Source: Candidatus Melainabacteria bacterium
GTDB taxonomy: Bacteria > Cyanobacteriota > Vampirovibrionia > Vampirovibrionales > Vampirovibrionaceae
Assembly: GCA_902168245.1 (NCBI GenBank)
Contig: CABHPA010000085.1
Span: 14,805 to 78,804, forward strand
DNA: 64,000 bases
Reading direction: 5' to 3'
In this document: one piece after another, positions 40,613 to 54,082 of the stretch
How the letters are laid out: the number at the start of each line of letters is the position of its first letter
Numbering within the stretch: position 1 is the first letter of the stretch
Position numbers and translations under genes: made by a program
The notes under the pieces: generated by a model
The model's input: the letters and a program-made list of their open reading frames with translations, nothing else
Told to the model about the DNA's origin: nothing
Database searches by the model: none

Positions 40613-40804
40613 CCGGGAACTGAATCGAATTTCAGCCGTCCTGACTGACAAGGTATCCCCACAGAGGATGACTTGTTAACTTTTTTAACAATCGTTCAGA
40701 CTCTCAGAAACCTGTCATCCAGACTTGGTTTTATTGGGATAATAAGAGTAAAAGCCGGAAGGTCCGTTATTGAGACACCATCTTAAAAACAAGGCGCCCG
40801 CACG

Positions 40805-42097: not shown

Positions 42098-42099
42098 GC

Positions 42100-43065
42100 A
42101 TGTTGACCCGTCTGGCCCAGTTTCGCACCGCAACCCAGCCCACCTACCGATTGCTTGCCATGCTGGCGCTGGCAGGAAGCTTATGCGGCATTCAGCCCAT
42201 TAACGCCCATGCCGCAGCCAAAACAGGCAATACAAAAGCGTCCGCCCAAACCCAGCCCGCCAAATTAAACGCGTCCGCTACCAAGACGGCAATCCCGGTT
42301 TTGGATGAAGCCAGCCTGAAAGCGATTGAGGAAGCCTCTCGCAAGCTGGACCCCGAAACCCGAAACACCATGAACCGCCTGTCGGAAGCCCTTCACCAGG
42401 AAGACAAGGCCATATACAACGAACTGCGGGACGATGAGGAGTTATCGGTCACGGATATCGGGATGCTCTGGGAAGCTGCGGTCGAGCGCAGCGGCACCAT
42501 CCGCTACGCCATAGAAAAACTCTCTCGCAAGGATGCCACCGGAAAGCCCGTGGACAACGACAGTTTTTCCAAACGGGTCGTGCAAAACCTGGTGCATTTG
42601 GGCGGTGTGGCTGGCACCATGTGGACGGGTACGCCCGCCGGGCTGATTGGCTCCAACATGGTACAGAACATTATGAGCGGCAACCCGCAGGAATCCGCCC
42701 TAAGTCAGGTCACGGACGCCGATATGGTTATTCTGGCCAAAGAAGTGGAAGCGCTGCAATCGCAGCTCATCACGCTGTATTACAACTACCGTCACGCCAA
42801 AGAGCGGCTTACCCTGGCCCAGGAAGCCAGTTCCACTATCTCCAAGTACTATGACCATACCAGCCATATCGAAAACTCGACCGCCGAGGCGCTCCAACCA
42901 TTGATTCAATCTATTTACGAAAACAGCAAGCAAGATGAGCAGACAGCCCATCAAGCCTATAACAGCAGTAAATCGGCCCTAACCCTGGTGGTTGGCCCAG
43001 ATGCCGTAGCGGCCCTGGAGCAAGGCAATAAAACCGGCAGCAGTGCAAGCATTTCGGGAAGTTAG
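42100..43065 (+). CDS. Secreted hypothetical protein (paralog B)
   Basis: Signal peptide; paralogous to the 40805-42097 product; 2-nt intergenic gap. Confidence 0.5.
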   Translation: MLTRLAQFRTATQPTYRLLAMLALAGSLCGIQPINAHAAAKTGNTKASAQTQPAKLNASATKTAIPVLDEASLKAIEEASRKLDPETRNTMNRLSEALHQEDKAIYNELRDDEELSVTDIGMLWEAAVERSGTIRYAIEKLSRKDATGKPVDNDSFSKRVVQNLVHLGGVAGTMWTGTPAGLIGSNMVQNIMSGNPQESALSQVTDADMVILAKEVEALQSQLITLYYNYRHAKERLTLAQEASSTISKYYDHTSHIENSTAEALQPLIQSIYENSKQDEQTAHQAYNSSKSALTLVVGPDAVAALEQGNKTGSSASISGS

Positions 43066-43120
43066 CTTTACAGACAAGCGGCATGAACTGACCCTGCCGC
43101 TCAAAACACTTTAAACAAAA

Positions 43121-43154
43121 AGAGACACCGACGAAATCAGTGTCTCTTTTTTTA
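43121..43154. terminator. Bidirectional rho-independent terminator
   Basis: agagacac-N11-gtgtctct hairpin flanked by an A-run upstream and a T-run downstream. Sits between convergent genes (42100-43065 + and rpsP -). Confidence 0.7.
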
Positions 43155-43173
43155 AGATTGGATGGTTGGGCTT

Positions 43174-43488
43174 TTAAGCCTGGGCTGCTTTCGCTTTCTC
43201 AGCAGCTTTTCTGGAAAGGCGTTCTTTTTTCACCACTTCCAACACAATCAACTCGCCATTTTCATCGGCTTTGTTGATCAGGCGCATAGCGGTTTCGCTA
43301 GGCTGGGCACCTTTGCGGATCCATTCCAGAGCAGCTTTTTTGTCCAGCTTCAGTTGCTTGGACATGGGATTGTAGTATCCCAATTCCATCAAGGGAGCCC
43401 CATCGCGACGGTTACGGATATCCGTTACGACGATCCGGTAGAACGGGCTGTGCTTGCGACCCAGGCGCTTTAAGCGAATCTTAACCAT
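43174..43488 (-). CDS. rpsP: 30S ribosomal protein S16
   Basis: MVKIRLKRLGRKHSPFYRIVV N-terminus; Lys/Ala-rich C-terminal extension. Confidence 0.9.
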   Translation of the reverse strand: MVKIRLKRLGRKHSPFYRIVVTDIRNRRDGAPLMELGYYNPMSKQLKLDKKAALEWIRKGAQPSETAMRLINKADENGELIVLEVVKKERLSRKAAEKAKAAQA

Positions 43489-43557
43489 AAAAAGGGGAAT
43501 CTCCTTGATTTTTCAGATGGACACACTTGTAAGGTACTTTTGTAGCACAAACAATTT

Positions 43558-44040
43558 TTATTTCAAAGCAGCTTTTTTCTGGTTCCTCAGCGAATTCAGG
43601 AACACCAAGTTCCCAATTGCCACGTAAGTGAGGAACAGAATGGAAATGGAGTTGATCATCCAGGTGTGGTGCATGCCGTCGTTCACCCAGCCTGCTTTCC
43701 AGGCATGCCCATGCTCTGCGCAAATCAACCCGTAAATAGATAGCAGAAGCATATAGAAGGCCAAAAAACGAGGGGCCAAGCAAATAATGGCAACCGCGCC
43801 CAAAAACTCGGCAATGAGCAGAAGGCCGTAGCCACTCCAAACCACGTCCGCAGAACTGAAAGGGTTGTGCAACGCGCCAGACAAGGTCAGTGGAATTGCG
43901 TTCATCACCAGAAAGAATGTAGCCGGAATCATAATCGGCCAGAATTCCTTAAAAAACCAGTTCCAACGACCTTCCGGGCATGAAATGTCGAAATCGTGAT
44001 GAGCCTCGTGGCTCTCGTGATGATTAGGCATCTGTGACAT
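43558..44040 (-). CDS. DoxX-family-like membrane protein
   Basis: 160 aa, 4 predicted TM, His-rich N-terminus; family assignment by eye. Confidence 0.4.
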   Translation of the reverse strand: MSQMPNHHESHEAHHDFDISCPEGRWNWFFKEFWPIMIPATFFLVMNAIPLTLSGALHNPFSSADVVWSGYGLLLIAEFLGAVAIICLAPRFLAFYMLLLSIYGLICAEHGHAWKAGWVNDGMHHTWMINSISILFLTYVAIGNLVFLNSLRNQKKAALK

Positions 44041-44178
44041 GGCTGCTTCTCTCTCCTAGCTCTCTGCGATGATACCAAAGCTTGCAATCAATAATAACAG
44101 AGCGAAGTAGAAGAGAAAAAACCAGACGTTTTTAATAAAAAGCGAAATATCCTTACGTTCTTCCATTTCAGTCTCTTT

Positions 44179-44595
44179 CTATGGCTTTTTGGCGGCGGCT
44201 GGGCTGGGAAGCTGTTTGCAGGCAACCACAAACTGGCTCACCATGTCGCTCAACTTGTCATATTCCAGAGCGGATAACCAGTAGGCTTCCACTCGCCGCT
44301 TGTCCACGCTGGGCTTCAGCTTGGGCATGCGCTTGCCAATCAGGCGTTCCCGGCAGAATTTATTGCCTTCACGGTAATGGCAATCACCCATTCGGCAACC
44401 AACGGCAAAGGTGCCGCTTGCACCGTTCTTAAGCGCCGTTTCCAGCATAATGGGCTGAATTTGCCCGCTACAGGGTACTTGAATAATCTTTACCGTAGGG
44501 TTATCCAGCAGGTAGCCATTGTCATCCAGCTTGCCAGCGAAGTCCACGCTCCGCTCACAGACAATGCCGATTACTTTGTTATTCTCAGTGGTCAT
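44179..44595 (-). CDS. MvhD/FlpD-like hydrogenase iron-sulfur subunit family protein
   Basis: GCRMGDCHYREGN core motif and IQVPCSGQIQP segment characteristic of PF02662. Confidence 0.55.
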   Translation of the reverse strand: MTTENNKVIGIVCERSVDFAGKLDDNGYLLDNPTVKIIQVPCSGQIQPIMLETALKNGASGTFAVGCRMGDCHYREGNKFCRERLIGKRMPKLKPSVDKRRVEAYWLSALEYDKLSDMVSQFVVACKQLPSPAAAKKP

Positions 44596-44634
44596 GATTG
44601 CTTTTTTATCCTTCTTGTGAAGTTGAAGCTTATC

Positions 44635-45801
44635 TTATGTAGTTGAACTCAATAGCGAGGCTTCGATTTCAGCCAGCACGGAACTCGTCTCGCGACGGGG
44701 GATTTCAATCGCCTTGAAGGCGCAAGCCCCTACGCACAGACCACAGTTTGCGCAACGCCCCGCATCCACCACCGCAAGACGCTTGAAGCGTGTCCCATCA
44801 TTTCCGCGATCCACCATGGTAATCGCCTCATAAGGGCAATCCTGGTAACAAAGGGAACAGCCAGTACAATTCTCGCGAGTGACTTGTGCGAATTGGCCGC
44901 GTAATGCCTTCTTTTGCAGATAAGGCAAGACCAGCAAACCCACCGGCACAGCCAGCACCAGCAACAACACTGCGACAGGCGGCACATTTTGAGCAGCCAG
45001 GTATTGAGGCCAAGCGTACAGCAAGTCGAAATAAACTTCGGAAGATATGCTGCCCAGGCCATTCAGCAGCGGCGCGGCGCCCGCGTCATGCGCACCGTAA
45101 GGCAGTACGCCCAGGCCGATCGGAAACACAGAGGAAACGATGAACAAGCCGCCAGCCATCATCACCACCAAGGGCAACGGCGGTTCGGAAACCGGACGGG
45201 TAATCCGCAGGTAATGCAGCCACAACATGAACATCATAAACAGCGGAATGCCAAGGTGCAGGAACATAAAGCGGGTCAGCGTGTAATCGGAAACGACCTT
45301 GCCCGCCATCAGCGCTTCCGCAACTGGGGCGCCCACCACGGGCAAACTCTTCAGCAGGTTAAAGGTAATATTGGCCAAGGTAACGGCTTCCTGATCCCAG
45401 ATCATCAGGTACCCGGTCAAACCGATGATAAAGGTAATCGTCAACAGGATAACGCCGGTAATCCAGGGCAGAATCCGGTACTCGCGATAACGATCCGTAA
45501 ACCAGACCCGCAACATGTGCAGAATGACGAAAATCATCATGCCGTCGCTGGCATATCGGTGTATGCCGCGGAACAAGTTCCCGAAGGGCAGTTCATAGGT
45601 AATATAGTGAACAGAGGCGTATGCGTTAGCCAGCGTTGGCTGGTAGTACGCGAACAAAAGCAGACCGGACAAGAACAGCGCCCAGATGAAGAAATTGGGT
45701 AGCGCGCCATGATAATAAAATGGATTGTATCTCTGGGAGAAAAGGGTGTTCAGGCCTTTCTCAATCCATAAGGTCGCTTTCTGTAAGGGGTCGGTATACA
45801 C
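44635..45801 (-). CDS. Di-heme cytochrome b (N-terminal domain) fused to 2x[4Fe-4S] ferredoxin domain
   Basis: His81/His95 and His182/His196 at the canonical 14-residue spacings in helices B and D (GIHRY...ILHMLRVWF; FLHLG...WLHYL). C-terminal CTGCSLCYQDCP and CANCGLCVGACA motifs. Confidence 0.65.
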   Translation of the reverse strand: MYTDPLQKATLWIEKGLNTLFSQRYNPFYYHGALPNFFIWALFLSGLLLFAYYQPTLANAYASVHYITYELPFGNLFRGIHRYASDGMMIFVILHMLRVWFTDRYREYRILPWITGVILLTITFIIGLTGYLMIWDQEAVTLANITFNLLKSLPVVGAPVAEALMAGKVVSDYTLTRFMFLHLGIPLFMMFMLWLHYLRITRPVSEPPLPLVVMMAGGLFIVSSVFPIGLGVLPYGAHDAGAAPLLNGLGSISSEVYFDLLYAWPQYLAAQNVPPVAVLLLVLAVPVGLLVLPYLQKKALRGQFAQVTRENCTGCSLCYQDCPYEAITMVDRGNDGTRFKRLAVVDAGRCANCGLCVGACAFKAIEIPRRETSSVLAEIEASLLSSTT

Positions 45802-45823
45802 GGGCGGGCTCCTTTTAGCTCGT

Positions 45824-46138
45824 CTATTTCTTTAATTCCTGGTCATTCAAGCTGGTCGAGATGTCCTCTTGCGCGCCAAGCAAAATGTAGGACACGCTAA
45901 TCGCCAGAAGAACCCCGCCGATGGCCAAACTGTATTGCTTGATGCCAGGGAGAATTTTCGCTTGAAAATCAGCCAAGATGGCCCCAGGATCAGCCGCAGG
46001 ATTGGCCAGTTTCACCAATCCTTCCGCATTCCACATCATAATGGGGCCTAACAAAGCGGCAACGCCAATAAAGAAGGCTAACCATTCTCTCCAGGTAAGG
46101 CTGGCAATACACTTGATAACATTGTTTAAAGGCTTCAT
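45824..46138 (-). CDS. Small 2-TM membrane protein (operon accessory subunit)
   Basis: 104 aa; start overlaps the stop of the next upstream gene. Confidence 0.4.
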   Translation of the reverse strand: MKPLNNVIKCIASLTWREWLAFFIGVAALLGPIMMWNAEGLVKLANPAADPGAILADFQAKILPGIKQYSLAIGGVLLAISVSYILLGAQEDISTSLNDQELKK

Positions 46139-46458
46139 TAAAAATTTTCCTTTTGTTCAAGGACAGATCTCAGCAGAAATCGCTTTTTAATCATCCATTC
46201 AAAAAGCCGGATCGGTTTTTCAACACGCCCACGGCTTTTTTCCTGGACATAACTATCGTAGACCAACACAATCAAGACCTGGGCCAACAAGAACATTACC
46301 AATCCCCAAATTAACCCATTATTTAGCGTGGGAATCGAGGCAAATGCCTTGTAAGTTTGAAACCAAAGGGACATCAGGAAAGTAGCCGCCAGAAACAACG
46401 TCCACCACATCCCGCGGTTCAATGGCTTCGTCACTGAAGAATTGGCCTGGTCCGCCAT
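46138..46458 (-). CDS. Small 2-TM membrane protein (operon accessory subunit)
   Basis: 106 aa; start overlaps the cytochrome b stop at 46458. Confidence 0.4.
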   Translation of the reverse strand: MADQANSSVTKPLNRGMWWTLFLAATFLMSLWFQTYKAFASIPTLNNGLIWGLVMFLLAQVLIVLVYDSYVQEKSRGRVEKPIRLFEWMIKKRFLLRSVLEQKENF

Positions 46459-47969
46459 TAGGCAGGCGCTCCTTCCAGTTGCAGGGCGGCTTCGCGCTCA
46501 TCACGCTTACGGCGAGCCATCCAGAAGAGGAACCCGGCCACCAGCATTTGCAGAACGGAGAATCCGACCCACAGCATGCTCCAGTACAAGTTGGTGAAGT
46601 TAATACTGACCGCAGCGCCATGGAAAGTCGCTTCAAACCAGGCAATCAGGCTGTGACCGCCGAAAGCCCCGTTCAGTTTGGTGTTCTCAACAACCAGATG
46701 CCAGAAGAACAAGTACCAAGTGCTTATAACCAGATTAAAGAGTACCCAGACGGTCATGGGCAAACGTTGCTTGTACATCGTCCAGTGCCAGAACTGCCCA
46801 ATGGTGATCATGGAAATCAGGTGGGCGAACCAGTACGGCGGATCATTTTCGATGTTGGCCATGTTGGCGATAATCAGCAAGGAGAACACGATGAACTCCA
46901 TTGCGGCCATAATGCCAATCGTGGTGAAAATCGGGCGTTTCAGCCAGTGACGCTCGGAACCAAAATCCAGAAAGGTCAGCCCAATGGTCACAAAGGGAAT
47001 GCCCAGCGTCCACAGGGTTGCCCAGTAGGGATCCATGTACTTCAGCAATTGATAGAGAGCCAAGAAGTACCAGTCGGATAGAATCGGAAGAGGCGTTACC
47101 TCAGGGTTGGAACGAGTTCCGGATTCTGCCGGGAAAATAATAGCCGTGAAAACCAGCAAGGCAATAATCAGGAACATCACCGGCTTCTTGAGGTTAATCC
47201 GTTTCATCCGGTTCTTGTAGAAGTACAGCTCAGACAGCACCAGCAGAATCAAAGACAATGCAAAGTGCAGGGAGTAGAAACGAGTCATGGTCGCTTGACC
47301 AATGGAACTGCCGCCCATCAGGATTTGCGATGTACTAAAACCCTGGTGCGTCAGGTTACCGACCAGCTTAGTGCCAGCCCCAATAATGTTAGGAATCAGC
47401 CAGGAATTTTTATAGTGCGCAAAATCCCACGGCCAAGCCCAGTTGGCAGGGGTAATATCCAGGTACGTAGGGAACGTGGCGAATACCTTGGTCGCCCAAA
47501 AGGCCCGCTGGTTCCAGATCAACAGGTAGCCGCTCAAACCGGAATACATGGCGATAACCAGCAGCAGAATCCCCAGGATAAAGGTCAATTCGCCCTTGTT
47601 TTTGTATTCGGCGGTAAACCACATCCGATAAACCCGCAATGTGGCGGCAATAATCATGGCATCCCCACTGTATTTATGGAGACCGCGCAAAACCGAGCCT
47701 AAAGGATGGTGAGACAAGAGATCAACGGAGTTGAACGCCTGGGCGGTGGTTGGCAGGTACAACGCCACCAGCACAATGCCGGTAAACAACACCAACATCC
47801 AGGCCAGGTAATACATACCACCCAGTTGATACCAGGGCGATTCAGCCTGTAAATCCGCCTTGGTTTCATCAAACAGGTCAATCTTTTGGACACGCTCCTT
47901 GACCCATTGAAACCCCTGAGCAGGCAAGGCTTTCACATCAAACGAATTCGTAGCAGTCATTCTAAGCAA
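46458..47969 (-). CDS. Cytochrome b of a bc-type complex (full-length b + subunit-IV-like domain, C-terminal extension)
   Basis: Cyt b helix B/D motifs (LRGLHKYSGDAM, TRFYSLHFAL) and a PEWY-region variant (SDWY). 8-nt overlap with the Rieske gene. Confidence 0.7.
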   Translation of the reverse strand: MLRMTATNSFDVKALPAQGFQWVKERVQKIDLFDETKADLQAESPWYQLGGMYYLAWMLVLFTGIVLVALYLPTTAQAFNSVDLLSHHPLGSVLRGLHKYSGDAMIIAATLRVYRMWFTAEYKNKGELTFILGILLLVIAMYSGLSGYLLIWNQRAFWATKVFATFPTYLDITPANWAWPWDFAHYKNSWLIPNIIGAGTKLVGNLTHQGFSTSQILMGGSSIGQATMTRFYSLHFALSLILLVLSELYFYKNRMKRINLKKPVMFLIIALLVFTAIIFPAESGTRSNPEVTPLPILSDWYFLALYQLLKYMDPYWATLWTLGIPFVTIGLTFLDFGSERHWLKRPIFTTIGIMAAMEFIVFSLLIIANMANIENDPPYWFAHLISMITIGQFWHWTMYKQRLPMTVWVLFNLVISTWYLFFWHLVVENTKLNGAFGGHSLIAWFEATFHGAAVSINFTNLYWSMLWVGFSVLQMLVAGFLFWMARRKRDEREAALQLEGAPA

Positions 47970-48612
47970 TCCCTCCCGCTTCTAACGCGGTAATGACCAA
48001 TGTAGCGTCTTTAATGTCGTAGGTAAACTGTCTTGGCGGACGGGGAGCCGGGCCGCTGACCACCTTGCCGGGAACGTTCTTGCCATTGACTTCCTGCGTT
48101 TGCAGCGGATCGTATACGCTCAAATGGCAGGGACAGGCAAACAGAGGGTTTTTGGCGGAAGGATAGTTGTAAGCAGCCGCCTCAGCAGGATCCGGCAAGA
48201 AGTTGAATACACAACCCATATGCGGGCAAATCCGGCTAACCACGATGAAATCCGGCTTGCCGTCCTTATCTTCCGGCAACCGAACCACAAAGCCTGGGAT
48301 CTTACTCGCCTGGAAGTGACGGAAAGTATATTCCTTGCTGCGTTGACTGAAAGTAAACGGCTGGAACGACCAAGGAGAGGGAAAGTCAGAGAGATTGAAG
48401 GTCACCTGCCGTTCCGCTTGAGGCATATCGGGAGGGGCCACCAAGCCAGACTTCCCTTGCCAGTCGGTCGGATTTCCGGAAACGTCCCAATCCGTAGTTT
48501 GCAACGGCCCCGAAGAGGGGCGAAGATAACGGAACAAGGGCGATACAAACAGCGCCAAAGCGCCAAGCACCGGGATGCTAACAATCAGCTTGAGAAAATC
48601 ACGTCTATTCAT
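47962..48612 (-). CDS. Rieske [2Fe-2S] iron-sulfur protein (Tat signal)
   Basis: RRDFLK twin-arginine motif; CPHMGC and CPCHLSVY boxes. Confidence 0.85.
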   Translation of the reverse strand: MNRRDFLKLIVSIPVLGALALFVSPLFRYLRPSSGPLQTTDWDVSGNPTDWQGKSGLVAPPDMPQAERQVTFNLSDFPSPWSFQPFTFSQRSKEYTFRHFQASKIPGFVVRLPEDKDGKPDFIVVSRICPHMGCVFNFLPDPAEAAAYNYPSAKNPLFACPCHLSVYDPLQTQEVNGKNVPGKVVSGPAPRPPRQFTYDIKDATLVITALEAGGIA

Positions 48613-49738
48613 TCAGCTTTTTCCCTTCCATGGAAGCGTGATTAACACCTGCTACGGGCTGAGCCAACGGCTCGGCATGCTCCACCGGCGGCTTTTCCAG
48701 GGTCAACCCGCCGGTAATGGGATCCGCAGAGGGCATATTAATAGCCTTCCCCTTATAGGGGCCATCATTTTTCATGGCGTTCGTCCAAGGGCGATTGCTG
48801 CCAACCGGCCTGCACACATTGATTTGGGCCAAACCGAGAGGCGGGGTCATCGCCTCGGGCAATTCCGGTTTCAAGTCGTTGTTATAGGACAGGGAGCGAA
48901 CGTGACGTACCAGGTTGGTAATCAGGTTCTCATTGAACATGTAGGTGATCTTGCCGGTATCCTTATCCACGTTCACATCACCATACCAGGACGGCATCGC
49001 GGACGGATAAATCCCTTCGCAGATATACTTGAACAACTGGGCGTCCGTCCGGTTGTAAACCCGGTTGTACTGACGGAAATTAGCAGGCGCTGGCATAAAG
49101 TTGTGAACCAGCGCGCCATCGTGCAATTCGTGGTTGCCAGTTTTACCCGTGTAGAGAGGGCCGTCGGCATTGCCTTTTGTGCCGTGACAAACCGCGCAGT
49201 TACCGCCGAAAATGGCGGCCACGTCGACTTTGGGATCCGGCGACTTGATATCGCCAGCCCCGGCCAAATAACGCGTGTAGAAGATAACCGCCCAACGATC
49301 GTCATGGTTGATCGCATCCCTAAAAGCTGGATGGTGAGCGGGCAAAAGCTTTTTGCGCTCAGGCGTTGGCATCACCACTTCGGGAGCGCCGCCTTCCGTC
49401 AGCATCGAATACATATCAATCGGGGTGGTAAAAGCCAAGTCTTCTTTGACTTTCTGATTTTGCCAGGATGCTTGCGTATGACATTTGACGCACTGCTGCC
49501 GGAAAATTTCCCGCCCCTTCATCAGGGAAGGCGGCTGGGAAGGAAACGCGAAGTCCATATTAGCCAGCTTCTGATCCACCACAGGCTCCGAAAAAAGCGC
49601 CTTGTTGGTGTTTTCAATTTTAGTGGGCTGCCCGGTACACCCGCTGAGCAAGACGGTCAGCGAGACAACGGCAGTCAGGGCCAAGGCTCTTGCGAATGAG
49701 ACCTTGCGGGAAGTCTGCTTTTTTAAAGACAAGTCCAT
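48605..49738 (-). CDS. Di-heme c-type cytochrome lipoprotein (bc-complex cytochrome c subunit)
   Basis: Lipobox LLSGC; two CxxCH motifs (CVKCH, CAVCH). Confidence 0.75.
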   Translation of the reverse strand: MDLSLKKQTSRKVSFARALALTAVVSLTVLLSGCTGQPTKIENTNKALFSEPVVDQKLANMDFAFPSQPPSLMKGREIFRQQCVKCHTQASWQNQKVKEDLAFTTPIDMYSMLTEGGAPEVVMPTPERKKLLPAHHPAFRDAINHDDRWAVIFYTRYLAGAGDIKSPDPKVDVAAIFGGNCAVCHGTKGNADGPLYTGKTGNHELHDGALVHNFMPAPANFRQYNRVYNRTDAQLFKYICEGIYPSAMPSWYGDVNVDKDTGKITYMFNENLITNLVRHVRSLSYNNDLKPELPEAMTPPLGLAQINVCRPVGSNRPWTNAMKNDGPYKGKAINMPSADPITGGLTLEKPPVEHAEPLAQPVAGVNHASMEGKKLNE

Positions 49739-49759
49739 GTATGTATAGCCTTTTTGCTT

Positions 49760-49933
49760 TTAGTATCCGAAAAACTGAATCCAGGAAATAGAGGCCCATC
49801 CGACAATCAGGATGAAGAAGAGCCAAAGAAACCAAGGCACCTTATGCTCGCCTACCTCAAATTCGTCATAGGAGGCAGATGATTCTGCGCCACCGTGGTT
49901 TAAATCCTGTTCGATTTGACTATTTTCAGCCAT
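49760..49933 (-). CDS. Small single-TM protein (57 aa), possible oxidase accessory subunit
   Basis: Below the ORF-track cutoff, translated by hand: MAENSQIEQDLNHGGAESSASYDEFEVGEHKVPWFLWLFFILIVGWASISWIQFFGY. Lies between the oxidase and bc genes. Confidence 0.35.
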   Translation of the reverse strand: MAENSQIEQDLNHGGAESSASYDEFEVGEHKVPWFLWLFFILIVGWASISWIQFFGY

Positions 49934-49953
49934 GGGTCAGGGCTCCGTTCTGA

Positions 49954-50124
49954 TTAATCTTCATCATGCAGCATGCGAAATTTGGATTCTTCCAAGCCTT
50001 CCAGCTTCCCGTTTTTAGAGGCCCACATCATAGCGGCGAAAGCCAACAGGAAAAATAGGATGCAGATGGCGAAAGCCGCAATGTAGCCAGGGCCGATACC
50101 GCCGGAAAGACAAGAGGGGCACAT
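49954..50124 (-). CDS. CcoS/FixS-like cbb3 oxidase maturation small protein (56 aa)
   Basis: Translated by hand: MCPSCLSGGIGPGYIAAFAICILFFLLAFAAMMWASKNGKLEGLEESKFRMLHDED. TM followed by W..K.GQ/K..DLEG pattern like CcoS. ATG overlaps the ccoO stop. Confidence 0.45.
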   Translation of the reverse strand: MCPSCLSGGIGPGYIAAFAICILFFLLAFAAMMWASKNGKLEGLEESKFRMLHDED

Positions 50125-51179
50125 TAGTGTCTTCCTCCCCCAGGTACCAGTTCGGGGTTTTCAGCATGCAGTTCGGACAAACGCTCAATTTCGTTATAGT
50201 TCTTATCCATCAATTGAGGCTGATCCAGTTGAGAATAGTTGGTAACTTCAACCTGCCCGGTAGGTGTAGACGGATCAACCGGCAAGGTCTTGATAAAGGC
50301 CACCAGGTAAGCCAGTTGCTGCTCGCTCAGACTACGTCCCCAGCGAGGCATCCGGGTTCCGGCGACACCTTCCTTGAGCCGCCAGTAGTACAGCGCATCG
50401 GTGTATGCTCGGTAGAAAGGACGGGTCAGATTGGCGGGTTTTTTAATCATGGAAGAGCTAATCGGGCCGTTGCCGCGACCGGTTACACCGTGGCACACCG
50501 CGCAGTTTTGCATGTAAATCCCGCGACCGGAGTTGGCAATCGCAGAGTTGTTGGTATCCACGTTCTTGGAGACACGCTTCCATTCATCGCGCATTTCCTG
50601 GGGCGCTTCCAGCCAGGTCAGACGATCATGGGCGGGAGCGGCGCTATGGCCACCAGCGACCTCTTTATGCTCAGGCTTACCGTCCAGGCCACGACGGCGG
50701 GCTTCCAATTCTCGCTCGCGTCCCAGGGTTTGCAGGTAAGCGACGAGATCTTTCATGTCCCTTTCGGACAAATAGCTGAAAGAAGGCATTAAAGAGCCGG
50801 GTTTCACGGCGCGAGGCTGCATATGGTGCGCCACATGCCAAGCGTCAGGATATTTGCCGCCCACGTTGGAAAGATCCGGGCCGGTACGCTCGGTACCCAG
50901 CAAGTGCGGGGTTTGGTTCACATAATCGCCCGCCAGAACCATCTCGCCCATTTCCCGATCCTGGTAGCGGACGAACTGGGTATGGCAATAGACGCATCCT
51001 TCACGCTTGTACACTTCACGGCCATGCGCTTCGCTGAGGGTATAGACATAAGCGCCCTGCTTGGTCGCTTCCGGCTGGAAGGTGGTTGCAGGTAAGATGG
51101 CGGTTACGAAGATGATTGTGAGGAAGATGAGGGCCACAAAGACAGCGGCAATCAGATAGTTGAGAATTCTATGTTGCAT
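50124..51179 (-). CDS. ccoO: cbb3-type cytochrome c oxidase subunit CcoO fused to an additional mono-heme cytochrome c domain
   Basis: N-terminal TM + GREVYKREGCVYCHTQFVR...TGPDLSNVGGKYPDAWHVAH matches the CcoO signature; second CxxCH (NCAVCHG) in the C-terminal half. Confidence 0.7.
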   Translation of the reverse strand: MQHRILNYLIAAVFVALIFLTIIFVTAILPATTFQPEATKQGAYVYTLSEAHGREVYKREGCVYCHTQFVRYQDREMGEMVLAGDYVNQTPHLLGTERTGPDLSNVGGKYPDAWHVAHHMQPRAVKPGSLMPSFSYLSERDMKDLVAYLQTLGRERELEARRRGLDGKPEHKEVAGGHSAAPAHDRLTWLEAPQEMRDEWKRVSKNVDTNNSAIANSGRGIYMQNCAVCHGVTGRGNGPISSSMIKKPANLTRPFYRAYTDALYYWRLKEGVAGTRMPRWGRSLSEQQLAYLVAFIKTLPVDPSTPTGQVEVTNYSQLDQPQLMDKNYNEIERLSELHAENPELVPGGGRH

Positions 51180-51215
51180 AGTGTCGTCTTTCCTTAATAG
51201 TCCTTGTGCGCACCC

Positions 51216-52622
51216 TTATACATAGGCGATCCCGGTGGGGGATTCCGGCAGAGGCTCCGCCGACTTGGAGAATACAGTCTTATAAATGTTCAACATGTAG
51301 AGGATCTGGCCCGCAATCAACATGATGCCGGAGATAAAACGAACCAGGAAGTAAGGCACCATCTCCATCACCCACTGATCGTAAGGCAGCGTGAAGTGCC
51401 AGCCAGCGGCCTGAATCAAGCCAGCAATGGTCAGGGCGATCATCATCACGATCCATCCGATGAAACTCAGCCAGAAATGCCAGATGGCCAGCGCGCGGCT
51501 ATAGATTTTACGGCCGGTGATTTTGGGAATGATGAAGTAAGAGGCGGAAAACACGATGAAAGAGAAGGTCGCAAGCAAGGCCAGGTGAGCGTGACCCACC
51601 ACCCAGTTGGAGAAGTGCAGGTACCAGTTGATACTACGGGTTGCCTGGAACGGCCCCTGCATACAAGTCAGCAGGTAGGCCAAACCAGCCGCCATGGCGA
51701 ACCGCATGGGGATATGATCCGCCATCAGGTGCCATTTGCCCTTCAGGGTCATAAAGAAGTTGGTTTGAACCGTCAGTACGGGAATCAACAAGAAAACGCT
51801 GGAGATGACCGCAATCGCTTTCAGCCACTCAGGAACTGGGGATTGCAGGATGTGGTGGGTACCCGTAGGCGCATAGAACATCCCAATCGTCCAGAAGCCA
51901 ATCATGGACAAGGTGTGGCTGTAGAGAGGATTGCCGGAGAAACGGGGCAGCAGGTAGTACAAAATACCGACCCCACCCACCGTAAACCACATACCCAGAA
52001 TGTTGTGACCATAGAACCAGCCCGCAATGGCGTCATTCAGGCCAGTGAACTGTACAAACGCCCGGTTACCGACCACGTACACAATCGGGAACCAGAACAA
52101 AGCGCCCATAAAGTACCAGAGACTGACGTACCATTTTTTCTCACTGCCGGTAAAGATGGTCATATAAACGTTCAAACCCACCAGCAGAAGGGCGCCCAGC
52201 ACCAACCAGTCGAAGGGGCCATTTAACTCGGCGTATTCACGGCCTTCGGTGTAGCCGTTCATAATGCTCCACACCCCCAGAATCACCGTCAGATTCCAGA
52301 GAAACAGGGTAATGTTGCCGAGCCGCTCGCTCCACATGCTTTTACGACCGGACAGCACCGGCACAATGTAGAACATGCAGGACACGTAACCCATGGACAG
52401 CCAGCCAATCAGCACCGTGTTAATGTGCGCAGGCCGCAAACGACCAAAGGCCAACTGGGGAATGCCGTGGATAATATCGGGGTTGGACATCAGCAGAGCC
52501 GCAATCAGCCCGAAAAGCATGCCAAATACTAAATAGAAGATAGCGCATAGCAAAAAGTTTCGGCTGGCGCTGTATGGCTCATCACTAAACGCGGCACGCC
52601 ATAAATTGGTAAGGGCTTGCAT
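51216..52622 (-). CDS. ccoN: cbb3-type cytochrome c oxidase subunit I (CcoN)
   Basis: 468 aa, 12+ TM, heme-copper oxidase His patterns (HINTVLIGW, WFYGHNILGMWF, VVGHAHLALL). Confidence 0.8.
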   Translation of the reverse strand: MQALTNLWRAAFSDEPYSASRNFLLCAIFYLVFGMLFGLIAALLMSNPDIIHGIPQLAFGRLRPAHINTVLIGWLSMGYVSCMFYIVPVLSGRKSMWSERLGNITLFLWNLTVILGVWSIMNGYTEGREYAELNGPFDWLVLGALLLVGLNVYMTIFTGSEKKWYVSLWYFMGALFWFPIVYVVGNRAFVQFTGLNDAIAGWFYGHNILGMWFTVGGVGILYYLLPRFSGNPLYSHTLSMIGFWTIGMFYAPTGTHHILQSPVPEWLKAIAVISSVFLLIPVLTVQTNFFMTLKGKWHLMADHIPMRFAMAAGLAYLLTCMQGPFQATRSINWYLHFSNWVVGHAHLALLATFSFIVFSASYFIIPKITGRKIYSRALAIWHFWLSFIGWIVMMIALTIAGLIQAAGWHFTLPYDQWVMEMVPYFLVRFISGIMLIAGQILYMLNIYKTVFSKSAEPLPESPTGIAYV

Positions 52623-53059
52623 ATATTTTACATATCTCCAGGGTAAGACTTACGAGGGGCTCAAAACTGATTACCGTTAATTTTCCATCCTTAGTATAAC
52701 CACGGGGAATTTTCAGGAAATATGCGTAAACACATACTCCAGATCGGCTCCTGCCCCTTTTTTTAAAGGGTATCAAAAAAATTTACAGAGCGTGATCTTG
52801 CAACATAATTTGTTTTTAATTCTTAAAGTTATTCATCCCATTCGGACTTACCCTTTCACCCTCGATATTCGGCCAAGGACGGTTTTAAGCAAGCCCGCGC
52901 CACCATCGAATCCGAATCAAATATATCCAACTTCAGTCCTCAAAACTGCATATGGATTATTCAAAACATCAGAGTGTATATCGTACTTCTATCTGTAACG
53001 TATTCCGGCCGCATTGTTTTTTGAGCCGCCGTAGCGCCTGAATAGGCTATAATGGCCCT

Positions 53060-54082
53060 ATGGCAGAAACACCTTTACTGAAAATTCAGGATCTCACGGT
53101 GGCCTTTCCCACCGAAACCGATCCCGCATACGCCATTAACCACCTTTCCCTGGAAATCCAACCAGGAGAAGTACTGGGCCTGGTAGGCGAATCCGGCTGC
53201 GGAAAAAGCATGACCAGCCTGGCTACGCTGCGATTGATTCCATCACCCGGCTATATTGCCAATGGCTCGGTTCATTTCAAAGGTCAAAACCTGTTATCCC
53301 TTAATGCAGAGGGAATTCGCAAGGTGCGAGGCGCGCAAATCGCCCTGATTCCACAAGACCCGTTGACTTCGCTGAACCCGGTCTACACTATCGGCGATCA
53401 GATTATGGAAGTGCTCCTGCTGCACCAGCATCTTTCCAAAAATGACGCCCGCAAACGGGCCATTGAACTGCTGGATCTGGTGCGCATCCCCAACAGCCGG
53501 GATCGCATTAACGACTACCCCCACCAGTTTTCCGGCGGTATGCGACAGCGGGTCATGATTGCGATGGCCTTGAGCTGCACCCCCGCCCTTTTAATTGCCG
53601 ATGAACCCACCACCGCGCTGGATGTAACCGTACAGGCCCAGATTTTACAATTGCTACGCGACATTCGCCGGGAACACCAGACCGCCATTATGCTGATTAC
53701 ACACGATTTGGGCGTAGTAGCGGAAATGTGCGACGAAGTGGCCGTCATGTACGCTGGCCGCGTGGTGGAAAAAGCCAGCGTGATGGATCTGTTCAAATCG
53801 CCCAAGCACCCTTACACGTGGGGATTGCTGGAATCCCTGCCCACCATGAACCATAGCCGCTTGAAACCCATTGAAGGCCAGCCACCTTCCATTACGGAAA
53901 TCCCGATGGGCTGCTCTTTTGAACCCCGGTGCAGCAAGCGGATGGACGTATGCAAAACCGTTTTTCCCTTAGCGGCGGAGGAAGGGACTAACCACCAGGT
54001 TTGCTGCTACCTGTATCCGGGCAGTTACCATCCGGATCAGCCGAAAGACCAAATGCCTCCGGCAACAACGCTTTTATCTTGA
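53060..54082 (+). CDS. Oligopeptide/dipeptide-type ABC transporter ATP-binding protein (OppD/DppD-like), orphan
   Basis: Walker A GESGCGKS, signature FSGGMRQRVMIAMAL, C-terminal oligopeptide ABC extension with Cys cluster. Confidence 0.75.
   Translation: MAETPLLKIQDLTVAFPTETDPAYAINHLSLEIQPGEVLGLVGESGCGKSMTSLATLRLIPSPGYIANGSVHFKGQNLLSLNAEGIRKVRGAQIALIPQDPLTSLNPVYTIGDQIMEVLLLHQHLSKNDARKRAIELLDLVRIPNSRDRINDYPHQFSGGMRQRVMIAMALSCTPALLIADEPTTALDVTVQAQILQLLRDIRREHQTAIMLITHDLGVVAEMCDEVAVMYAGRVVEKASVMDLFKSPKHPYTWGLLESLPTMNHSRLKPIEGQPPSITEIPMGCSFEPRCSKRMDVCKTVFPLAAEEGTNHQVCCYLYPGSYHPDQPKDQMPPATTLLS

What the first reader, a model, noticed from the sequence alone, without database searches (positions are those of the whole stretch)
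45824..52622. Translationally coupled fused complex III-IV operon (cbb3 oxidase + bc complex)
ccoN, a ccoO-cytochrome c fusion, a CcoS-like 56-aa ORF, a 57-aa TM ORF, a diheme cytochrome c lipoprotein, the Rieske protein, cytochrome b and two small 2-TM proteins are co-linear on the minus strand. Their start and stop codons overlap or are separated by 40 nt or less (the two upstream small ORFs lie 19 nt apart; the diheme cytochrome c follows them after 21 nt). Examples: 50124/50124, 48605-48612, 47962-47969, 46458, 46138. This implies a single transcript and probably a bc-cbb3 supercomplex. Such fused III-IV operons are reported for non-photosynthetic cyanobacterial relatives, which fits the Ycf45/LdpA-like genes elsewhere in the window.
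Basis: partly seen in the sequence, partly recalled or inferred. Interest (0 to 1): 0.65.

Follow-up and report, generated by a model that had tools for sequence, protein, structure and literature searches.

The report
Vampirovibrio oxidase operon, haem-poor cytochrome b
This is the already reported combined "complex III-IV" respiratory operon of non-photosynthetic cyanobacteria (a Vampirovibrio relative), but its cytochrome b has lost the binding residues for one of its two haems, and the operon continues into a second cytochrome b fused to an iron-sulfur domain, so it probably does not work like a textbook bc complex.

Summary
Nine co-linear minus-strand genes run from ccoN to two small membrane proteins, with junctions of -8 to +36 nt. 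The cluster does not end at 45824. Four more tightly spaced genes follow, down to 43558: a second cytochrome b fused to a 2x[4Fe-4S] domain, an MvhD/FlpD-like protein, a 36-aa protein and a 160-aa membrane protein.

The organism is a Vampirovibrio relative. The gene order is kept in about 70 species-level genomes of Vampirovibrionales, Obscuribacterales and Caenarcanales. A complex III-IV "fusion" next to a C-type oxidase has already been published for Melainabacteria, so the operon itself is known.

Three things appear unreported in the papers I could search:
- The Rieske-linked cytochrome b has lost both histidine ligands of the n-side haem (His to Arg/Lys and His to Tyr). This holds in all 121 homologues and all 72 genome copies. 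The p-side ligands and an SDWY Qo motif are invariant.
- The second cytochrome b keeps all four histidines, eight cluster cysteines and the MvhD partner.
- That second module is widespread in other phyla as a single polypeptide, often beside haem-copper oxidase and SCO1 genes.

A single transcript, a supercomplex and the electron path are inferred, not shown.

The parts
51216..52622 (-). ccoN, catalytic subunit I of a C-family (cbb3-type) haem-copper oxidase, 468 aa
   Evidence: Pfam COX1 at 1.8e-82. TIGR00780 ccoN scores 272 bits, below its cut-off of 583. It aligns over its full length to solved CcoN chains 9g6b_A and 3mk7_A (5e-62). The haem b, haem b3 and CuB histidines and the helix-VII tyrosine are aligned.
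50124..51179 (-). ccoO (monohaem subunit II) fused to a C-terminal monohaem cytochrome c domain, 351 aa. There is no separate dihaem ccoP.
   Evidence: FixO 1.2e-35 plus Cytochrome_CBB3 1.6e-17. NF011054 at 149 bits. CcoO chains 9g6b_B and 3mk7_B at about 1e-25, and the C-terminal domain matches c-type cytochromes. CVYCH and CAVCH motifs are visible in the translation.
49954..50124 (-). 56-aa single-helix protein, CcoS/FixS-like, in the position where ccoQ usually sits
   Evidence: Pfam FixS at 2.3e-5, 24.5 bits against a gathering score of 23.1. Its start shares one base with the ccoO stop. Found by tblastn in nearly all related loci at 36-88% identity.
49760..49933 (-). 57-aa single-helix membrane protein of unknown family
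   Evidence: No Pfam, NCBIfam or PDB match. Conserved in position and sequence in related loci at 33-78% identity.
48605..49738 (-). Dihaem c-type cytochrome lipoprotein, 377 aa. It is the likely counterpart of cytochrome c1.
   Evidence: Two Cytochrome_CBB3/Cytochrom_C stretches. CVKCH and CAVCH motifs and an LSGC lipobox in the translation. Its stop overlaps the Rieske start by 8 nt.
47962..48612 (-). Rieske [2Fe-2S] protein with a twin-arginine signal, 216 aa
   Evidence: PF00355 at 20.7 bits, and TIGR01416 at 8.9e-10. MNRRDFLK, CPHMGC and CPCHLSVY motifs in the translation.
46458..47960 (-). Long cytochrome b (b6-like domain fused to a subunit-IV-like domain plus a C-terminal extension), 500 aa. 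An alternative TTG start lies at 47969. It has p-side haem ligands only. The n-side (bH/bn) ligands are replaced by Arg and Tyr. Its Qo motif is SDWY.
   Evidence: Cytochrome_B plus Cytochrom_B_C. Residue-level alignment to cytochrome b6 chains 2zt9_A and 1vf5_A. Column counts over 121 homologues and over the window plus 71 genome loci: H/R(K)/H/Y, with SDWY invariant. No other invariant His.
46138..46458 (-). 106-aa membrane protein with two predicted helices, unknown family
   Evidence: No family hit above a gathering score; the only listed match (DUF1129, 18.4 bits against 29.1) is below it. 1-nt overlaps on both sides. Detectable in Vampirovibrionales loci at 28-66%. Obscuribacterales have two unrelated-looking small ORFs in the same place.
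45824..46138 (-). 104-aa membrane protein, unknown family
   Evidence: No family. Conserved only in close relatives at 37-63%.
44635..45801 (-). Second cytochrome b (b'): six helices homologous to helices A-F of cytochrome b, fused to a C-terminal 2x[4Fe-4S] ferredoxin domain, 388 aa. This lies outside the finding's coordinates.
   Evidence: Cytochrome_B 9.5e-33 plus Fer4 families. Cytochrome b6 chain 1vf5_A at 6e-33. Four His and seven of the eight Cys are invariant in all 81 copies; C322 is Cys in 80 of 81. hhalign to the main cytochrome b profile gives 99.85% probability and extends through the ef loop, where an Asp aligns with the Asp of SDWY.
44179..44595 (-). MvhD/FlpD-like [2Fe-2S]-type electron-transfer protein, 138 aa
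   Evidence: PF02662 FlpD. MvhD chain 5odc_D at 8.8e-18 over 119 residues. C13, C42, C67 and C72 are invariant in 80 copies. Fused to the b'-ferredoxin protein in other phyla.
44056..44166 (-). 36-aa single-helix ORF
   Evidence: Called in the public assemblies. Lies 12 nt after the FlpD stop. Found by tblastn in most loci of all three orders at 38-100%.
43558..44040 (-). 160-aa polytopic membrane protein, unknown family. It is the last tightly spaced gene before rpsP.
   Evidence: No Pfam match. Lies 15 nt after the 36-aa ORF. Conserved only within Vampirovibrionales at 33-79%.
52623..53059 (.). 437-nt intergenic region between ccoN and a divergently transcribed ABC-transporter ATPase gene. 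It is the only sizeable non-coding gap and so the presumed promoter region.
   Evidence: Sequence read. No FNR-type box. No outstanding sigma-70 match on the minus strand. The promoter is inferred from gene layout only.

Best explanation
The window carries the class-wide respiratory operon of Vampirovibrionia (Melainabacteria). It has 13 tightly spaced genes and is probably one transcript.

The operon encodes three things:
- A cbb3-type oxidase: CcoN, a CcoO-cytochrome c fusion, a CcoS-like peptide and a 57-aa peptide.
- A Rieske/cytochrome b quinol oxidase with a lipid-anchored dihaem cytochrome c.
- A second cytochrome b (b') fused to two [4Fe-4S] clusters, with an MvhD-like [2Fe-2S] protein, plus small membrane subunits.

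High-potential branch (inferred from homology): quinol is oxidised at the Qo site. Electrons then pass from Rieske to the dihaem c, to the c domain and haem of CcoO, to CcoN and to O2. No soluble cytochrome c is needed, as in a III-IV supercomplex.

Low-potential branch: this cannot be canonical, because the Rieske-linked cytochrome b keeps only the p-side haem (bL). I propose that haem bL hands its electron to b'. The b' protein has the complete transmembrane haem pair and the same fold. A b/b' heterodimer is the simplest geometry, with electrons crossing bL to bL'. In this model b' links the electron to the n side. There it either re-reduces quinone or exchanges electrons with the cytoplasm through the [4Fe-4S] and MvhD clusters.

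What is shown: gene content, order, spacing, lineage, loss of the bH ligands, and retention of all cofactor ligands in b' and MvhD.
What is inferred: the single transcript, physical association, the b-to-b' hand-over and the direction of electron flow.
For: Anatomy and junctions.

Subunit integrity:
- CcoN cofactor residues are aligned to solved cbb3 structures.
- CcoO matches solved CcoO chains, with an extra c domain.

The main cytochrome b:
- b6 His86 and His187 are kept. His100 is Arg and His202 is Tyr in residue-level alignments.
- In 121 homologues of 46-100% identity the four positions read H 120/121, R 100 plus K 21, H 121/121 and Y 118/121.
- The same pattern holds in the window plus 71 species genomes, including V. 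chlorellavorus NCIMB 11383, Ca. Obscuribacter phosphatis and a Caenarcanales genome. SDWY is invariant there.
- No other invariant His exists in the protein.

The b' protein and its partner:
- In b', the four His and seven of the eight cluster Cys are invariant in 81 copies (C322 is Cys in 80 of 81). The four Cys of the MvhD-like protein are invariant in 80 copies.
- b' is homologous to the main cytochrome b through helix F, with 99.85% hhalign probability.
- The two proteins are encoded in the same operon in every locus with enough flanking DNA, across three orders.
- The b'-ferredoxin and MvhD parts occur as one polypeptide elsewhere, so they work together.

Literature:
- The III-IV fusion in Melainabacteria has been reported (PMC6349859).
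Against: - No experimental or structural datum links b and b'. Co-transcription does not prove a shared complex.
- The b'-Fd-MvhD module has a life of its own. It stands without the rest of the operon in two Vampirovibrionales loci (L025, L027).
- In other phyla it lies beside A/B-type oxidase operons that have no Rieske/cytochrome b at all, often next to SCO1/SenC and CtaB. Once it is fused to SCO1. Its primary partner may therefore be the oxidase or its biogenesis.
- The replacement residues (Arg/Lys and Tyr) are themselves conserved, and one helix-A glycine at the b6 CxGG position is invariant (G47). An n-side cofactor with unusual ligation is therefore not excluded.
- Reduction of a low-potential cytoplasmic acceptor from the Qo site would be energetically demanding. 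This is my own estimate, not computed.
Confidence: 0.45

Rival explanations
1. The two modules are independent. The b'-Fd-MvhD unit is a general accessory of haem-copper oxidases. It could be a transmembrane reductase that carries cytoplasmic electrons to the periplasmic side, for Cu(II) or SCO1-thiol reduction during oxidase assembly. Or it could be an entry point for cytoplasmic reductants. The haem-bH-less Rieske/cytochrome b complex then works without a Q cycle. Both quinol electrons end in the high-potential chain, or bL passes directly to the oxidase, giving a lower H+/e- ratio.
For: - The fused cytb-Fer4-FlpD proteins sit next to COX1/COX2, CtaB (UbiA) and SCO1/SenC in L092, L093, L094 and L095, where no Rieske/cytochrome b is present.
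- P0306 is an SCO1-cytb-Fer4 fusion.
- A NuoF-like gene lies between two modules in L094.
- The module is stand-alone in L025 and L027 within Vampirovibrionales.
- A CcoS-like assembly factor is also in the operon.
Against: - A Qo site with a conserved bL but no outlet for it would stall after one turnover in known bc chemistry. This is established knowledge, echoed in PMC4122944.
- bL ligands and the Qo motif are nevertheless invariant.
- b' keeps an ef-loop Asp homologous to the Qo motif, which suggests quinone chemistry rather than metal reduction.
- No SCO1 gene is in the Vampirovibrio operon.
Confidence: 0.33
2. An n-side cofactor is retained in the main cytochrome b but with non-histidine ligation, for example a Tyr-ligated or five-coordinate haem. 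A modified Q cycle then still runs inside this subunit.
For: - The replacing residues are themselves nearly invariant: Tyr in 118/121 and 72/72, Arg/Lys in 121/121.
- One glycine of the helix-A 'GG' is invariant.
- There are precedents of altered haem ligation in cytochrome b paralogues whose haem number is unknown: cyanobacterial subfamily K (PMC5600118) and Pyrobaculum (PMC4122944).
Against: - Arg, the majority residue, is not a haem ligand.
- Both ligands are lost together in every sequence.
- A complete dihaem paralogue is always co-encoded.
Confidence: 0.1
3. One reading: an ordinary bc (or b6f) complex plus cbb3 oxidase with a standard Q cycle, merely encoded in one operon.
For: Pfam and NCBIfam recognise Rieske, cytochrome b N- and C-terminal domains, CcoN and CcoO. 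The literature calls these genes petB/petC or complex III.
Against: - Both bH ligands are absent in all members.
- There is no CxGG / haem ci cysteine.
- The Qo motif is SDWY, which is not mentioned in the Qo-motif survey (0 occurrences).
- Extra conserved redox genes sit in the operon.
Confidence: 0.07
4. The haem-ligand loss is decay of a non-functional gene, or an assembly or annotation artefact.
For: None beyond the unusual residues.
Against: - The reading frame is intact.
- Identity is 46-100% across three orders, with long invariant blocks around the Qo site.
- The identical protein occurs on 15 independent metagenome contigs.
- The same residues occur in the cultured V. chlorellavorus genome.
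Confidence: 0.02

Closest known systems
'Complex III-IV' fusion operon of Melainabacteria / Ca. Obscuribacter phosphatis (Soo et al. 2017, as cited in bioRxiv 10.1101/531145; Matheus Carnevali et al. 2019, PMC6349859)
   Same: The lineage is the same. A type C oxidase lies directly beside 'petB, petB, petC'. The locus in Ca. O. phosphatis (L071, L072) and V. chlorellavorus (L015) is the same operon as here.
   Different: The accessible descriptions stop at gene names. They call the proteins b6f subunits. They do not mention the missing bH ligands, the ferredoxin fusion of the second petB, the MvhD-like gene or the small subunits. I could not read Soo et al. 2017 itself.
Actinobacterial cytochrome bcc-aa3 supercomplex (for example 7e1v, 6adq)
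   Same: A dihaem cytochrome c takes the place of c1 and of a soluble carrier, and complexes III and IV act as one unit. QcrC-like and QcrB-like weak matches appear.
   Different: The oxidase here is C-family, not A-family. Actinobacterial QcrB has both b haems. The dihaem c here is a lipoprotein.
bc1-cbb3 supercomplexes of Pseudomonas aeruginosa and Rhodobacter capsulatus (PMC10556555, PMC7876108; chains 8smr, 6xkw)
   Same: The same oxidase family is paired with a Rieske/cytochrome b complex. CcoN and CcoO here align to those chains.
   Different: In those organisms the two complexes are encoded in separate operons, cytochrome b is canonical, a dihaem CcoP is present and there is no b'-Fd-MvhD module.
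Engineered cross-inactivated cytochrome b-b fusions that show bL-to-bL electron transfer across the bc1 dimer ('bus bar' experiments; from my own knowledge, not checked here)
   Same: One half has a working Qo site but no bH. The other half supplies the haem path to the n side. This is the arrangement proposed here for b and b'.
   Different: Those are artificial mutants of a homodimer. Here two natural paralogous genes would form the pair, and b' carries cytoplasmic iron-sulfur clusters. The association is untested.
Anammox Rieske/cytochrome b complexes with added cytoplasmic redox subunits, proposed to generate NAD(P)H (PMC12954380, abstract seen)
   Same: A Rieske/cytochrome b core is encoded together with extra cytoplasm-facing redox proteins, which suggests a non-standard fate for the low-potential electron.
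   Different: The accessory proteins are different. I have no indication that the anammox cytochromes b lack bH. The organisms there are anaerobes, whereas here the complex is coupled to an O2 reductase.
Cytochromes b with altered n-side haem ligands: Pyrobaculum cytochrome b (PMC4122944) and cyanobacterial subfamily K (PMC5600118)
   Same: These are natural cytochrome b homologues in which a canonical haem histidine is replaced.
   Different: In those cases a single ligand is replaced, in other lineages and gene contexts. Here both bH ligands are replaced, class-wide, in the Rieske-linked subunit of an oxidase operon.
MvhD of the Mvh-Hdr complex (5odc_D) and NarI/HdrE-type membrane cytochromes b with cytoplasmic Fe-S partners
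   Same: The MvhD fold and four Cys are conserved. The logic of a dihaem membrane anchor wired to cytoplasmic Fe-S clusters is the same.
   Different: The membrane part is a bc-type cytochrome b, not NarI-type. No HdrA or hydrogenase gene is nearby.

Membership tests
C-family (cbb3-type) haem-copper oxidase | Subunit I with six cofactor histidines (haem b, haem b3, CuB) and the helix-VII cross-link tyrosine | tested here: met
   All are aligned to 9g6b_A over residues 17-455. COX1 at 1.8e-82.
C-family (cbb3-type) haem-copper oxidase | Monohaem CcoO subunit encoded next to ccoN | tested here: met
   FixO 1.2e-35. Solved CcoO chains at about 1e-25. CVYCH motif.
C-family (cbb3-type) haem-copper oxidase | Separate dihaem CcoP subunit (ccoNOQP layout) | tested here: not met
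   There is no ccoP gene. One monohaem c domain is fused to CcoO, and TIGR00782 ccoP scores only 38 bits against a cut-off of 180. CcoP-less C-family variants are known (my own knowledge).
C-family (cbb3-type) haem-copper oxidase | Reaches the curated NCBIfam equivalog cut-offs | tested here: not met
   ccoN scores 272 against 583, and ccoO scores 110 against 201. These are divergent members.
Rieske/cytochrome b complex (bc1 / b6f) | Rieske protein with CxH...CxxH cluster boxes | tested here: met
   CPHMGC and CPCH motifs in the translation. PF00355 just above its gathering score, and TIGR01416 at 8.9e-10.
Rieske/cytochrome b complex (bc1 / b6f) | Cytochrome b with four axial histidines (two haems across the membrane) | tested here: not met
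   The bH/bn ligands are Arg/Lys and Tyr in 121/121 and 72/72 sequences. The bL ligands are kept.
Rieske/cytochrome b complex (bc1 / b6f) | Qo motif (PEWY, PDWY, PVWY and similar) in the ef loop | tested here: inconclusive
   SDWY is invariant. The acidic residue and WY are kept and the proline is lost. The string SDWY does not occur in PMC4122944.
Cytochrome b6f type specifically | Split b6 plus subunit IV, CxGG cysteine for haem ci, and helix-D histidines 15 residues apart | tested here: not met
   The protein is a single 500-aa polypeptide. Gln (or Ala, Ser, Thr in relatives) stands at the Cys35 position. The best sequence matches are nevertheless to b6.
Published Melainabacteria complex III-IV operon | Type C oxidase genes contiguous with two petB-like genes and one petC-like gene in a Melainabacteria genome | tested here: met
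   The layout is identical in V. chlorellavorus, Ca. O. phosphatis and about 70 other genomes. The description is in PMC6349859 Supplementary Note 6.
MvhD/FlpD family | Homology to MvhD with conserved cluster cysteines | tested here: met
   5odc_D at 8.8e-18. Four Cys are invariant in 80 copies.
MvhD/FlpD family | Works with a hydrogenase or HdrA-type flavoprotein | tested here: not met
   No such gene is in the operon or among the scanned neighbouring ORFs of the window (about 32-44 kb and 54-62 kb). The partner here is a cytochrome b-ferredoxin.
CcoS/FixS assembly factor | Match to PF03597 above the gathering score | tested here: met
   24.5 bits against 23.1, which is marginal. The Obscuribacterales-type orthologue (L008, cytochrome b P0109) also hits FixS weakly.
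Respiratory III-IV supercomplex | Physical association of the two complexes | not testable with these tools
   This is only suggested by co-linearity, the dihaem c and the c domain on CcoO.

The most novel reading that the evidence does not exclude
Vampirovibrionia may use a naturally asymmetric Rieske/cytochrome b complex. One paralogue (b) would carry the Qo site and haem bL only. The other paralogue (b') would carry the full transmembrane haem pair and a covalently attached 2x[4Fe-4S] domain with an MvhD partner. Electrons would then cross between the two halves (bL to bL'), and the low-potential branch would be wired to cytoplasmic iron-sulfur chemistry instead of, or in addition to, a Qi site. 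That would be the first natural heterodimeric bc-type core. It would also be a natural counterpart of the engineered 'bus-bar' constructs. It could bear on how ferredoxin-side electron input into b6f-type complexes arose in the cyanobacterial lineage.
Probability: 0.3. Interest if true: 0.85.

Novelty: new variant of a known kind. Interest (0 to 1): 0.6.

Why it matters
The operon as such is known, and it is used in arguments about when aerobic respiration entered the cyanobacterial lineage. Those arguments treat it as an ordinary complex III (or b6f) plus a low-O2 oxidase.

If the Rieske-linked cytochrome b really has one haem, the enzyme cannot run a textbook Q cycle. Energy yield, inhibitor sensitivity and the claimed homology to b6f would all need re-examination. 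Large surveys of cytochrome b explicitly discarded sequences lacking any of the four histidines (PMC4122944), so such variants have been systematically overlooked.

The second module (cytochrome b, 2x[4Fe-4S], MvhD) turns out to be a widespread and uncharacterised companion of haem-copper oxidases in Nitrospirota, Nitrospinota, Thermodesulfobacteriota and others. Its function is therefore a question of general interest.

V. chlorellavorus can be grown in co-culture with Chlorella, and Obscuribacter is abundant in phosphorus-removal wastewater reactors. The prediction is therefore directly testable by biochemistry.

Tried and rejected
- Internal promoters and terminators: the consensus scan of 42800-53200 gave no excess over shuffles and no convincing site between the oxidase and bc genes. 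This neither proves nor disproves a single transcript.
- FNR/Anr box upstream of ccoN: no TTGAT-N4-ATCAA site with one mismatch or fewer in the 437-nt upstream region. The six window matches lie elsewhere and are near chance.
- Identity of the 57-aa, 106-aa, 104-aa and 160-aa proteins, and of the 36-aa ORF: Pfam/NCBIfam at permissive thresholds (57-, 106-, 104- and 160-aa proteins) and the PDB sequence search (57-aa protein only) gave nothing usable. My guess that the 57-aa protein resembles the CcoP N-terminal helix was not supported. The 36-aa ORF was only compared by BLASTP with the tail domain.
- An alternative haem site in the C-terminal extension of cytochrome b: its histidines are not conserved, at 83% or less.
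- The 241/250-aa proteins upstream of the stand-alone b' genes in L025 and L027 are soluble with no family, so they are uninformative.
- Homology between the window's 36-aa and 160-aa proteins and the extra C-terminal domain of the fused family in other phyla: none.
- Literature: ten searches found no paper describing the haem-ligand loss or the ferredoxin/MvhD genes in this operon. Soo et al. 2017 is not held. An idea from memory, that the module equals 'orf1' of the norSY-senC-orf1 cluster of ammonia oxidisers, could not be checked.
- The pseudogene and assembly-artefact readings were rejected on conservation.
- Structure prediction was not run. The tool returns no coordinates and cannot model complexes or haems, so it could not discriminate between the hypotheses.

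Full report

Yes. The ORF list shows nine co-linear minus-strand ORFs between 45824 and 52622. Profile searches assign them as follows:
- CcoN: COX1, 1.8e-82.
- A CcoO-cytochrome c fusion: FixO plus Cytochrome_CBB3.
- A 56-aa FixS/CcoS-like peptide: 24.5 bits, just above the gathering score of 23.1.
- A 57-aa peptide with no family.
- A dihaem c-type cytochrome with a lipobox.
- A Rieske protein with a twin-arginine signal.
- A 500-aa cytochrome b.
- Two small membrane proteins.

I measured the junctions directly. They are 36 nt, -1, 20, 21, -8, +1, -1 and -1. The +1 becomes -8 only if the TTG at 47969 is the start rather than the ATG at 47960 that public gene calls use.

The run does not end at 45824. 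Four more genes follow with gaps of 22, 39, 12 and 15 nt:
- 44635-45801, a cytochrome b fused to a ferredoxin domain.
- 44179-44595, a FlpD/MvhD-like protein.
- 44056-44166, a 36-aa ORF.
- 43558-44040, a 160-aa membrane protein.

Consensus promoter and terminator matches inside the cluster are at the level of shuffled sequence. The only large non-coding gap is the 437 nt upstream of ccoN, which has no FNR-type box.

**2. Whose genome, and is the arrangement conserved?**

The exact CcoN sequence lies on 15 metagenome contigs with identical synteny. Homologues of the cytochrome b that carry a source name are Vampirovibrio, Vampirovibrionales, Melainabacteria or unclassified 'Cyanobacteria bacterium' MAGs, apart from one 2.6-kb contig labelled Azospira, which is probably mis-binned.

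A scan of one genome per species found 125 relatives of the second cytochrome b. The best 80 loci are Vampirovibrionales, Obscuribacterales and Caenarcanales, plus a few obviously mislabelled bins. They include:
- Vampirovibrio sp. C_No_T20_B_bin.46, the closest at 90%.
- V. chlorellavorus NCIMB 11383.
- Ca. Obscuribacter phosphatis.

tblastn with the 13 window proteins shows one gene order in every locus that has enough upstream DNA: ccoN, ccoO-c, 56 aa, 57 aa, dihaem c, Rieske, cytochrome b, two small ORFs, b'-ferredoxin, FlpD, 36 aa. The exceptions are L025 and L027. Intergenic distances are conserved, with medians of 28, 2, 19, 18, 27, -1, 31 and 27 nt.

The window context fits a motile Vampirovibrio-like cell: flagellar export genes, Lpt genes, a ycf45-like gene and a HEAT_PBS protein.

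**3. What was already known?**

The V. chlorellavorus and Obscuribacter genome papers report complexes I-IV and a cbb3 oxidase. Matheus Carnevali et al. 2019 state that type C oxidase genes lie directly beside 'petB, petB, petC' in Melainabacteria. [quoted passage not shown] A 2019 preprint cites Soo et al. 2017 for a 'complex III-IV operon'.

A single transcript and a supercomplex remain inferences.

**4. What the sequence adds: the Rieske-linked cytochrome b has lost the ligands of its n-side haem.**

Residue-level alignments to solved cytochrome b6 chains give this pattern:

| b6 residue | Haem | Here |
|---|---|---|
| His86 | bp/bL | kept |
| His187 | bp/bL | kept |
| His100 | bn/bH | Arg |
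| His202 | bn/bH | Tyr |

Across 121 homologues at 46-100% identity the four positions read His 120/121, Arg 100 plus Lys 21, His 121/121 and Tyr 118/121. Across the window plus 71 species genomes the pattern is H 72, R 69 plus K 3, H 72 and Y 72. That set includes V. chlorellavorus, Ca. O. phosphatis and a Caenarcanales genome.

No other histidine in the protein is invariant. The haem-ci cysteine of b6f is absent. The Qo motif is an invariant SDWY.

The oxidase itself looks fully competent. All CcoN cofactor residues align to solved cbb3 enzymes, and CcoO matches solved CcoO chains.

The Qo-motif survey of Kao and Hunte treated the four histidines as invariable and removed sequences lacking them. 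It noted only Pyrobaculum as lacking one bH ligand. Dibrova et al. 2017 describe a cyanobacterial paralogue with one altered ligand but did not include Melainabacteria.

Ten literature searches found no description of this feature for this operon (among them). The library is limited and I could not read Soo et al. 2017. 'Unreported' is therefore provisional.

**5. The second cytochrome b and its partner.**

The 388-aa protein has these features:
- A b6-like four-helix core, matching 1vf5_A at 6e-33.
- All four histidines invariant.
- Two further helices.
- A C-terminal domain with two CxxCxxCxxxC motifs. Seven of the eight cysteines are invariant in 81 copies, and C322 is Cys in 80 of 81.

Profile-profile alignment with the main cytochrome b gives 99.85% probability. 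It runs through helix E, the ef loop and helix F, with an almost invariant Asp (80 of 81 copies) aligned to the Asp of SDWY. The protein is thus a truncated bc-type cytochrome b, not a NarI-type anchor.

The next gene is a full-length MvhD homologue (5odc_D, 8.8e-18) with four invariant cysteines.

**6. The module is not confined to this lineage.**

A search of 1.8 billion cluster representatives found 279 clusters at E of 1e-30 or better. Many of them are 485-790 aa, and every long one I scanned against Pfam (7 of 7, 495-792 aa) holds cytochrome b, Fer4 and FlpD in one polypeptide. Named members come from Thermodesulfobacteriota/Deltaproteobacteria, Nitrospirota, Nitrospinota and Spirochaetota. 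They are annotated 'hydrogenase iron-sulfur subunit'. The fusion shows that the ferredoxin domain and MvhD act together.

These proteins usually carry a further helix plus a domain of about 150 aa. That domain can also be a separate gene, and it is absent from the window.

I looked up six genomic contexts:
- L092: CoxB-like, COX1, SCO1, module.
- L093: module beside SCO1, CtaB and two COX1 genes.
- L094: COX2, COX1, CtaB, SCO1, module, a NuoF-like gene, a second module.
- L095: module, COX2, COX1, COX3, COX4.
- L090 and L091: stand-alone.

The first four put the module next to A/B-type haem-copper oxidase genes with no Rieske/cytochrome b in the locus. One representative is an SCO1-cytochrome b-Fer4 fusion.

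**7. How it most likely works.**

What the sequence shows is a competent quinol-oxidising Qo/Rieske/bL unit, a competent cbb3 oxidase, enough c-type haems to connect them without a soluble carrier, and a complete dihaem/Fe-S/MvhD wire across the membrane.

The rest is inference. The high-potential electron would go from Rieske to the dihaem c, to CcoO-c, to CcoN and to O2. The low-potential electron on bL has no bH in its own subunit. In known bc chemistry a Qo site whose bL cannot be re-oxidised stalls. Yet bL ligands and the Qo motif are invariant, so an outlet must exist.

The only other b-haem protein in the operon is b'. It shares the fold that dimerises in all known bc complexes. I therefore favour a b/b' pair in which electrons cross bL to bL' and reach the n side through bH' (confidence 0.45). 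There they would either reduce quinone or exchange with the cytoplasm through the Fe-S and MvhD clusters. This mirrors the engineered cross-inactivated cytochrome b fusions (my own knowledge).

**8. Rivals.**

The main rival (0.33) is that b'-Fd-MvhD is primarily an oxidase-associated module. It could feed in cytoplasmic electrons, as the NuoF-like neighbour in L094 suggests. Or it could be a periplasm-directed reductase for copper or SCO1 handling, as the SCO1 adjacency and fusion suggest. The haem-poor bc unit would then run without a Q cycle. This rival is supported by section 6 and by the stand-alone b'/FlpD genes in L025 and L027.

A retained n-side cofactor with unusual ligation is possible (0.10), because Tyr and Arg/Lys are themselves conserved. 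A canonical complex (0.07) is contradicted by the conserved loss of both bH ligands, and gene decay (0.02) by the conservation of the protein.

**9. Verdict.**

The finding is real. Its lineage assignment and 'fused III-IV operon' label are right, and at that level it is already known.

The 'bc complex' fails a defining feature of the family (four haem histidines). The operon is four genes longer and includes an uncharacterised cytochrome b-ferredoxin-MvhD module. That module recurs beside haem-copper oxidases across phyla.

I rate it a new variant of a known kind, interest 0.6. The mechanism is open and directly testable in V. chlorellavorus or Obscuribacter.

Noticed in passing
L092 4486-10255; L093 7001-14504; L094 2588-12467; L095 7001-12078 (related loci from other phyla): Single-polypeptide cytochrome b-2x[4Fe-4S]-MvhD proteins (485-702 aa) lie directly beside A/B-type haem-copper oxidase genes, CtaB (UbiA) and SCO1/SenC. 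No Rieske/cytochrome b is present in these loci. In L094 a NuoF-like (Complex1_51K) gene sits between two copies. This appears to be an uncharacterised, recurrent oxidase-associated module.
   Followed up: partly
P0306 (676 aa, from the representatives search): A protein in which an SCO1/SenC (copper chaperone / thioredoxin-like) domain is fused N-terminally to the cytochrome b-Fer4 module. This hints at a link to copper or thiol redox handling in the periplasm. It is a single cluster on a 6-kb contig, so a gene-calling fusion cannot be excluded.
   Followed up: no
L025 9044-12129 and L027 2845-5391 (Vampirovibrionales MAGs): The b'-ferredoxin and FlpD genes occur here without any oxidase, Rieske or cytochrome b gene within the flanking DNA held (10 kb upstream in L025, 3.8 kb to the contig end in L027). 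They are preceded by a soluble 241/250-aa protein with no family. I could not check whether the rest of the operon lies elsewhere in those genomes.
   Followed up: partly
P0253 residues about 515-695; L092 9596-10255; L093 8451-8990: The fused family carries an extra helix plus a domain of about 150 aa with conserved motifs (for example xCxE, CxRERxP, PxGxKRDG). This domain is sometimes a separate downstream gene. It is mutually homologous across the six examples compared (E from 6.5e-9 to 1e-55). It is absent from the Vampirovibrio operon, where a 36-aa helix and a 160-aa membrane protein follow FlpD instead.
   Followed up: partly
window 46458-47969: The longest ORF of cytochrome b starts at a TTG (47969) that overlaps the Rieske stop by 8 nt. 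The public gene calls start at the ATG at 47960, 1 nt after the stop. The cytochrome b also has a p-side insertion of about 40 residues (about residues 164-205) between helices C and D. This insertion is absent from b6 and from b'.
   Followed up: partly
window 53060-54082 (+): An oligopeptide/nickel-type ABC-transporter ATPase gene (ABC_tran plus oligo_HPY) is transcribed divergently from ccoN. It is in the same position in two distant Vampirovibrionales-type relatives (L007, L009), while the Obscuribacterales-type locus L008 has other genes there. The meaning of this conserved divergent pair is unknown.
   Followed up: no
window 39947-43065 (+): A small molybdopterin oxidoreductase domain protein (Oxidored_molyb, MsrP/YedY-like, 221 aa) is followed by two proteins of 430 and 321 aa with no family. 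They converge on the end of the operon. The 321-aa and 430-aa genes are syntenic in the public contigs that carry the identical CcoN (L001-L003), and genes of similar size lie in the same position in L007.
   Followed up: no
window 30145-35293 (-), 25104-26807 (+), 58914-59984 (-), 23826-23901 (-): The wider window holds flagellar export genes (flhA, flhB, fliR, fliP), a ycf45-like AAA/R3H protein, a HEAT_PBS-repeat protein and a single tRNA-Thr(CGU). These are consistent with a motile, non-photosynthetic cyanobacterial relative.
   Followed up: partly
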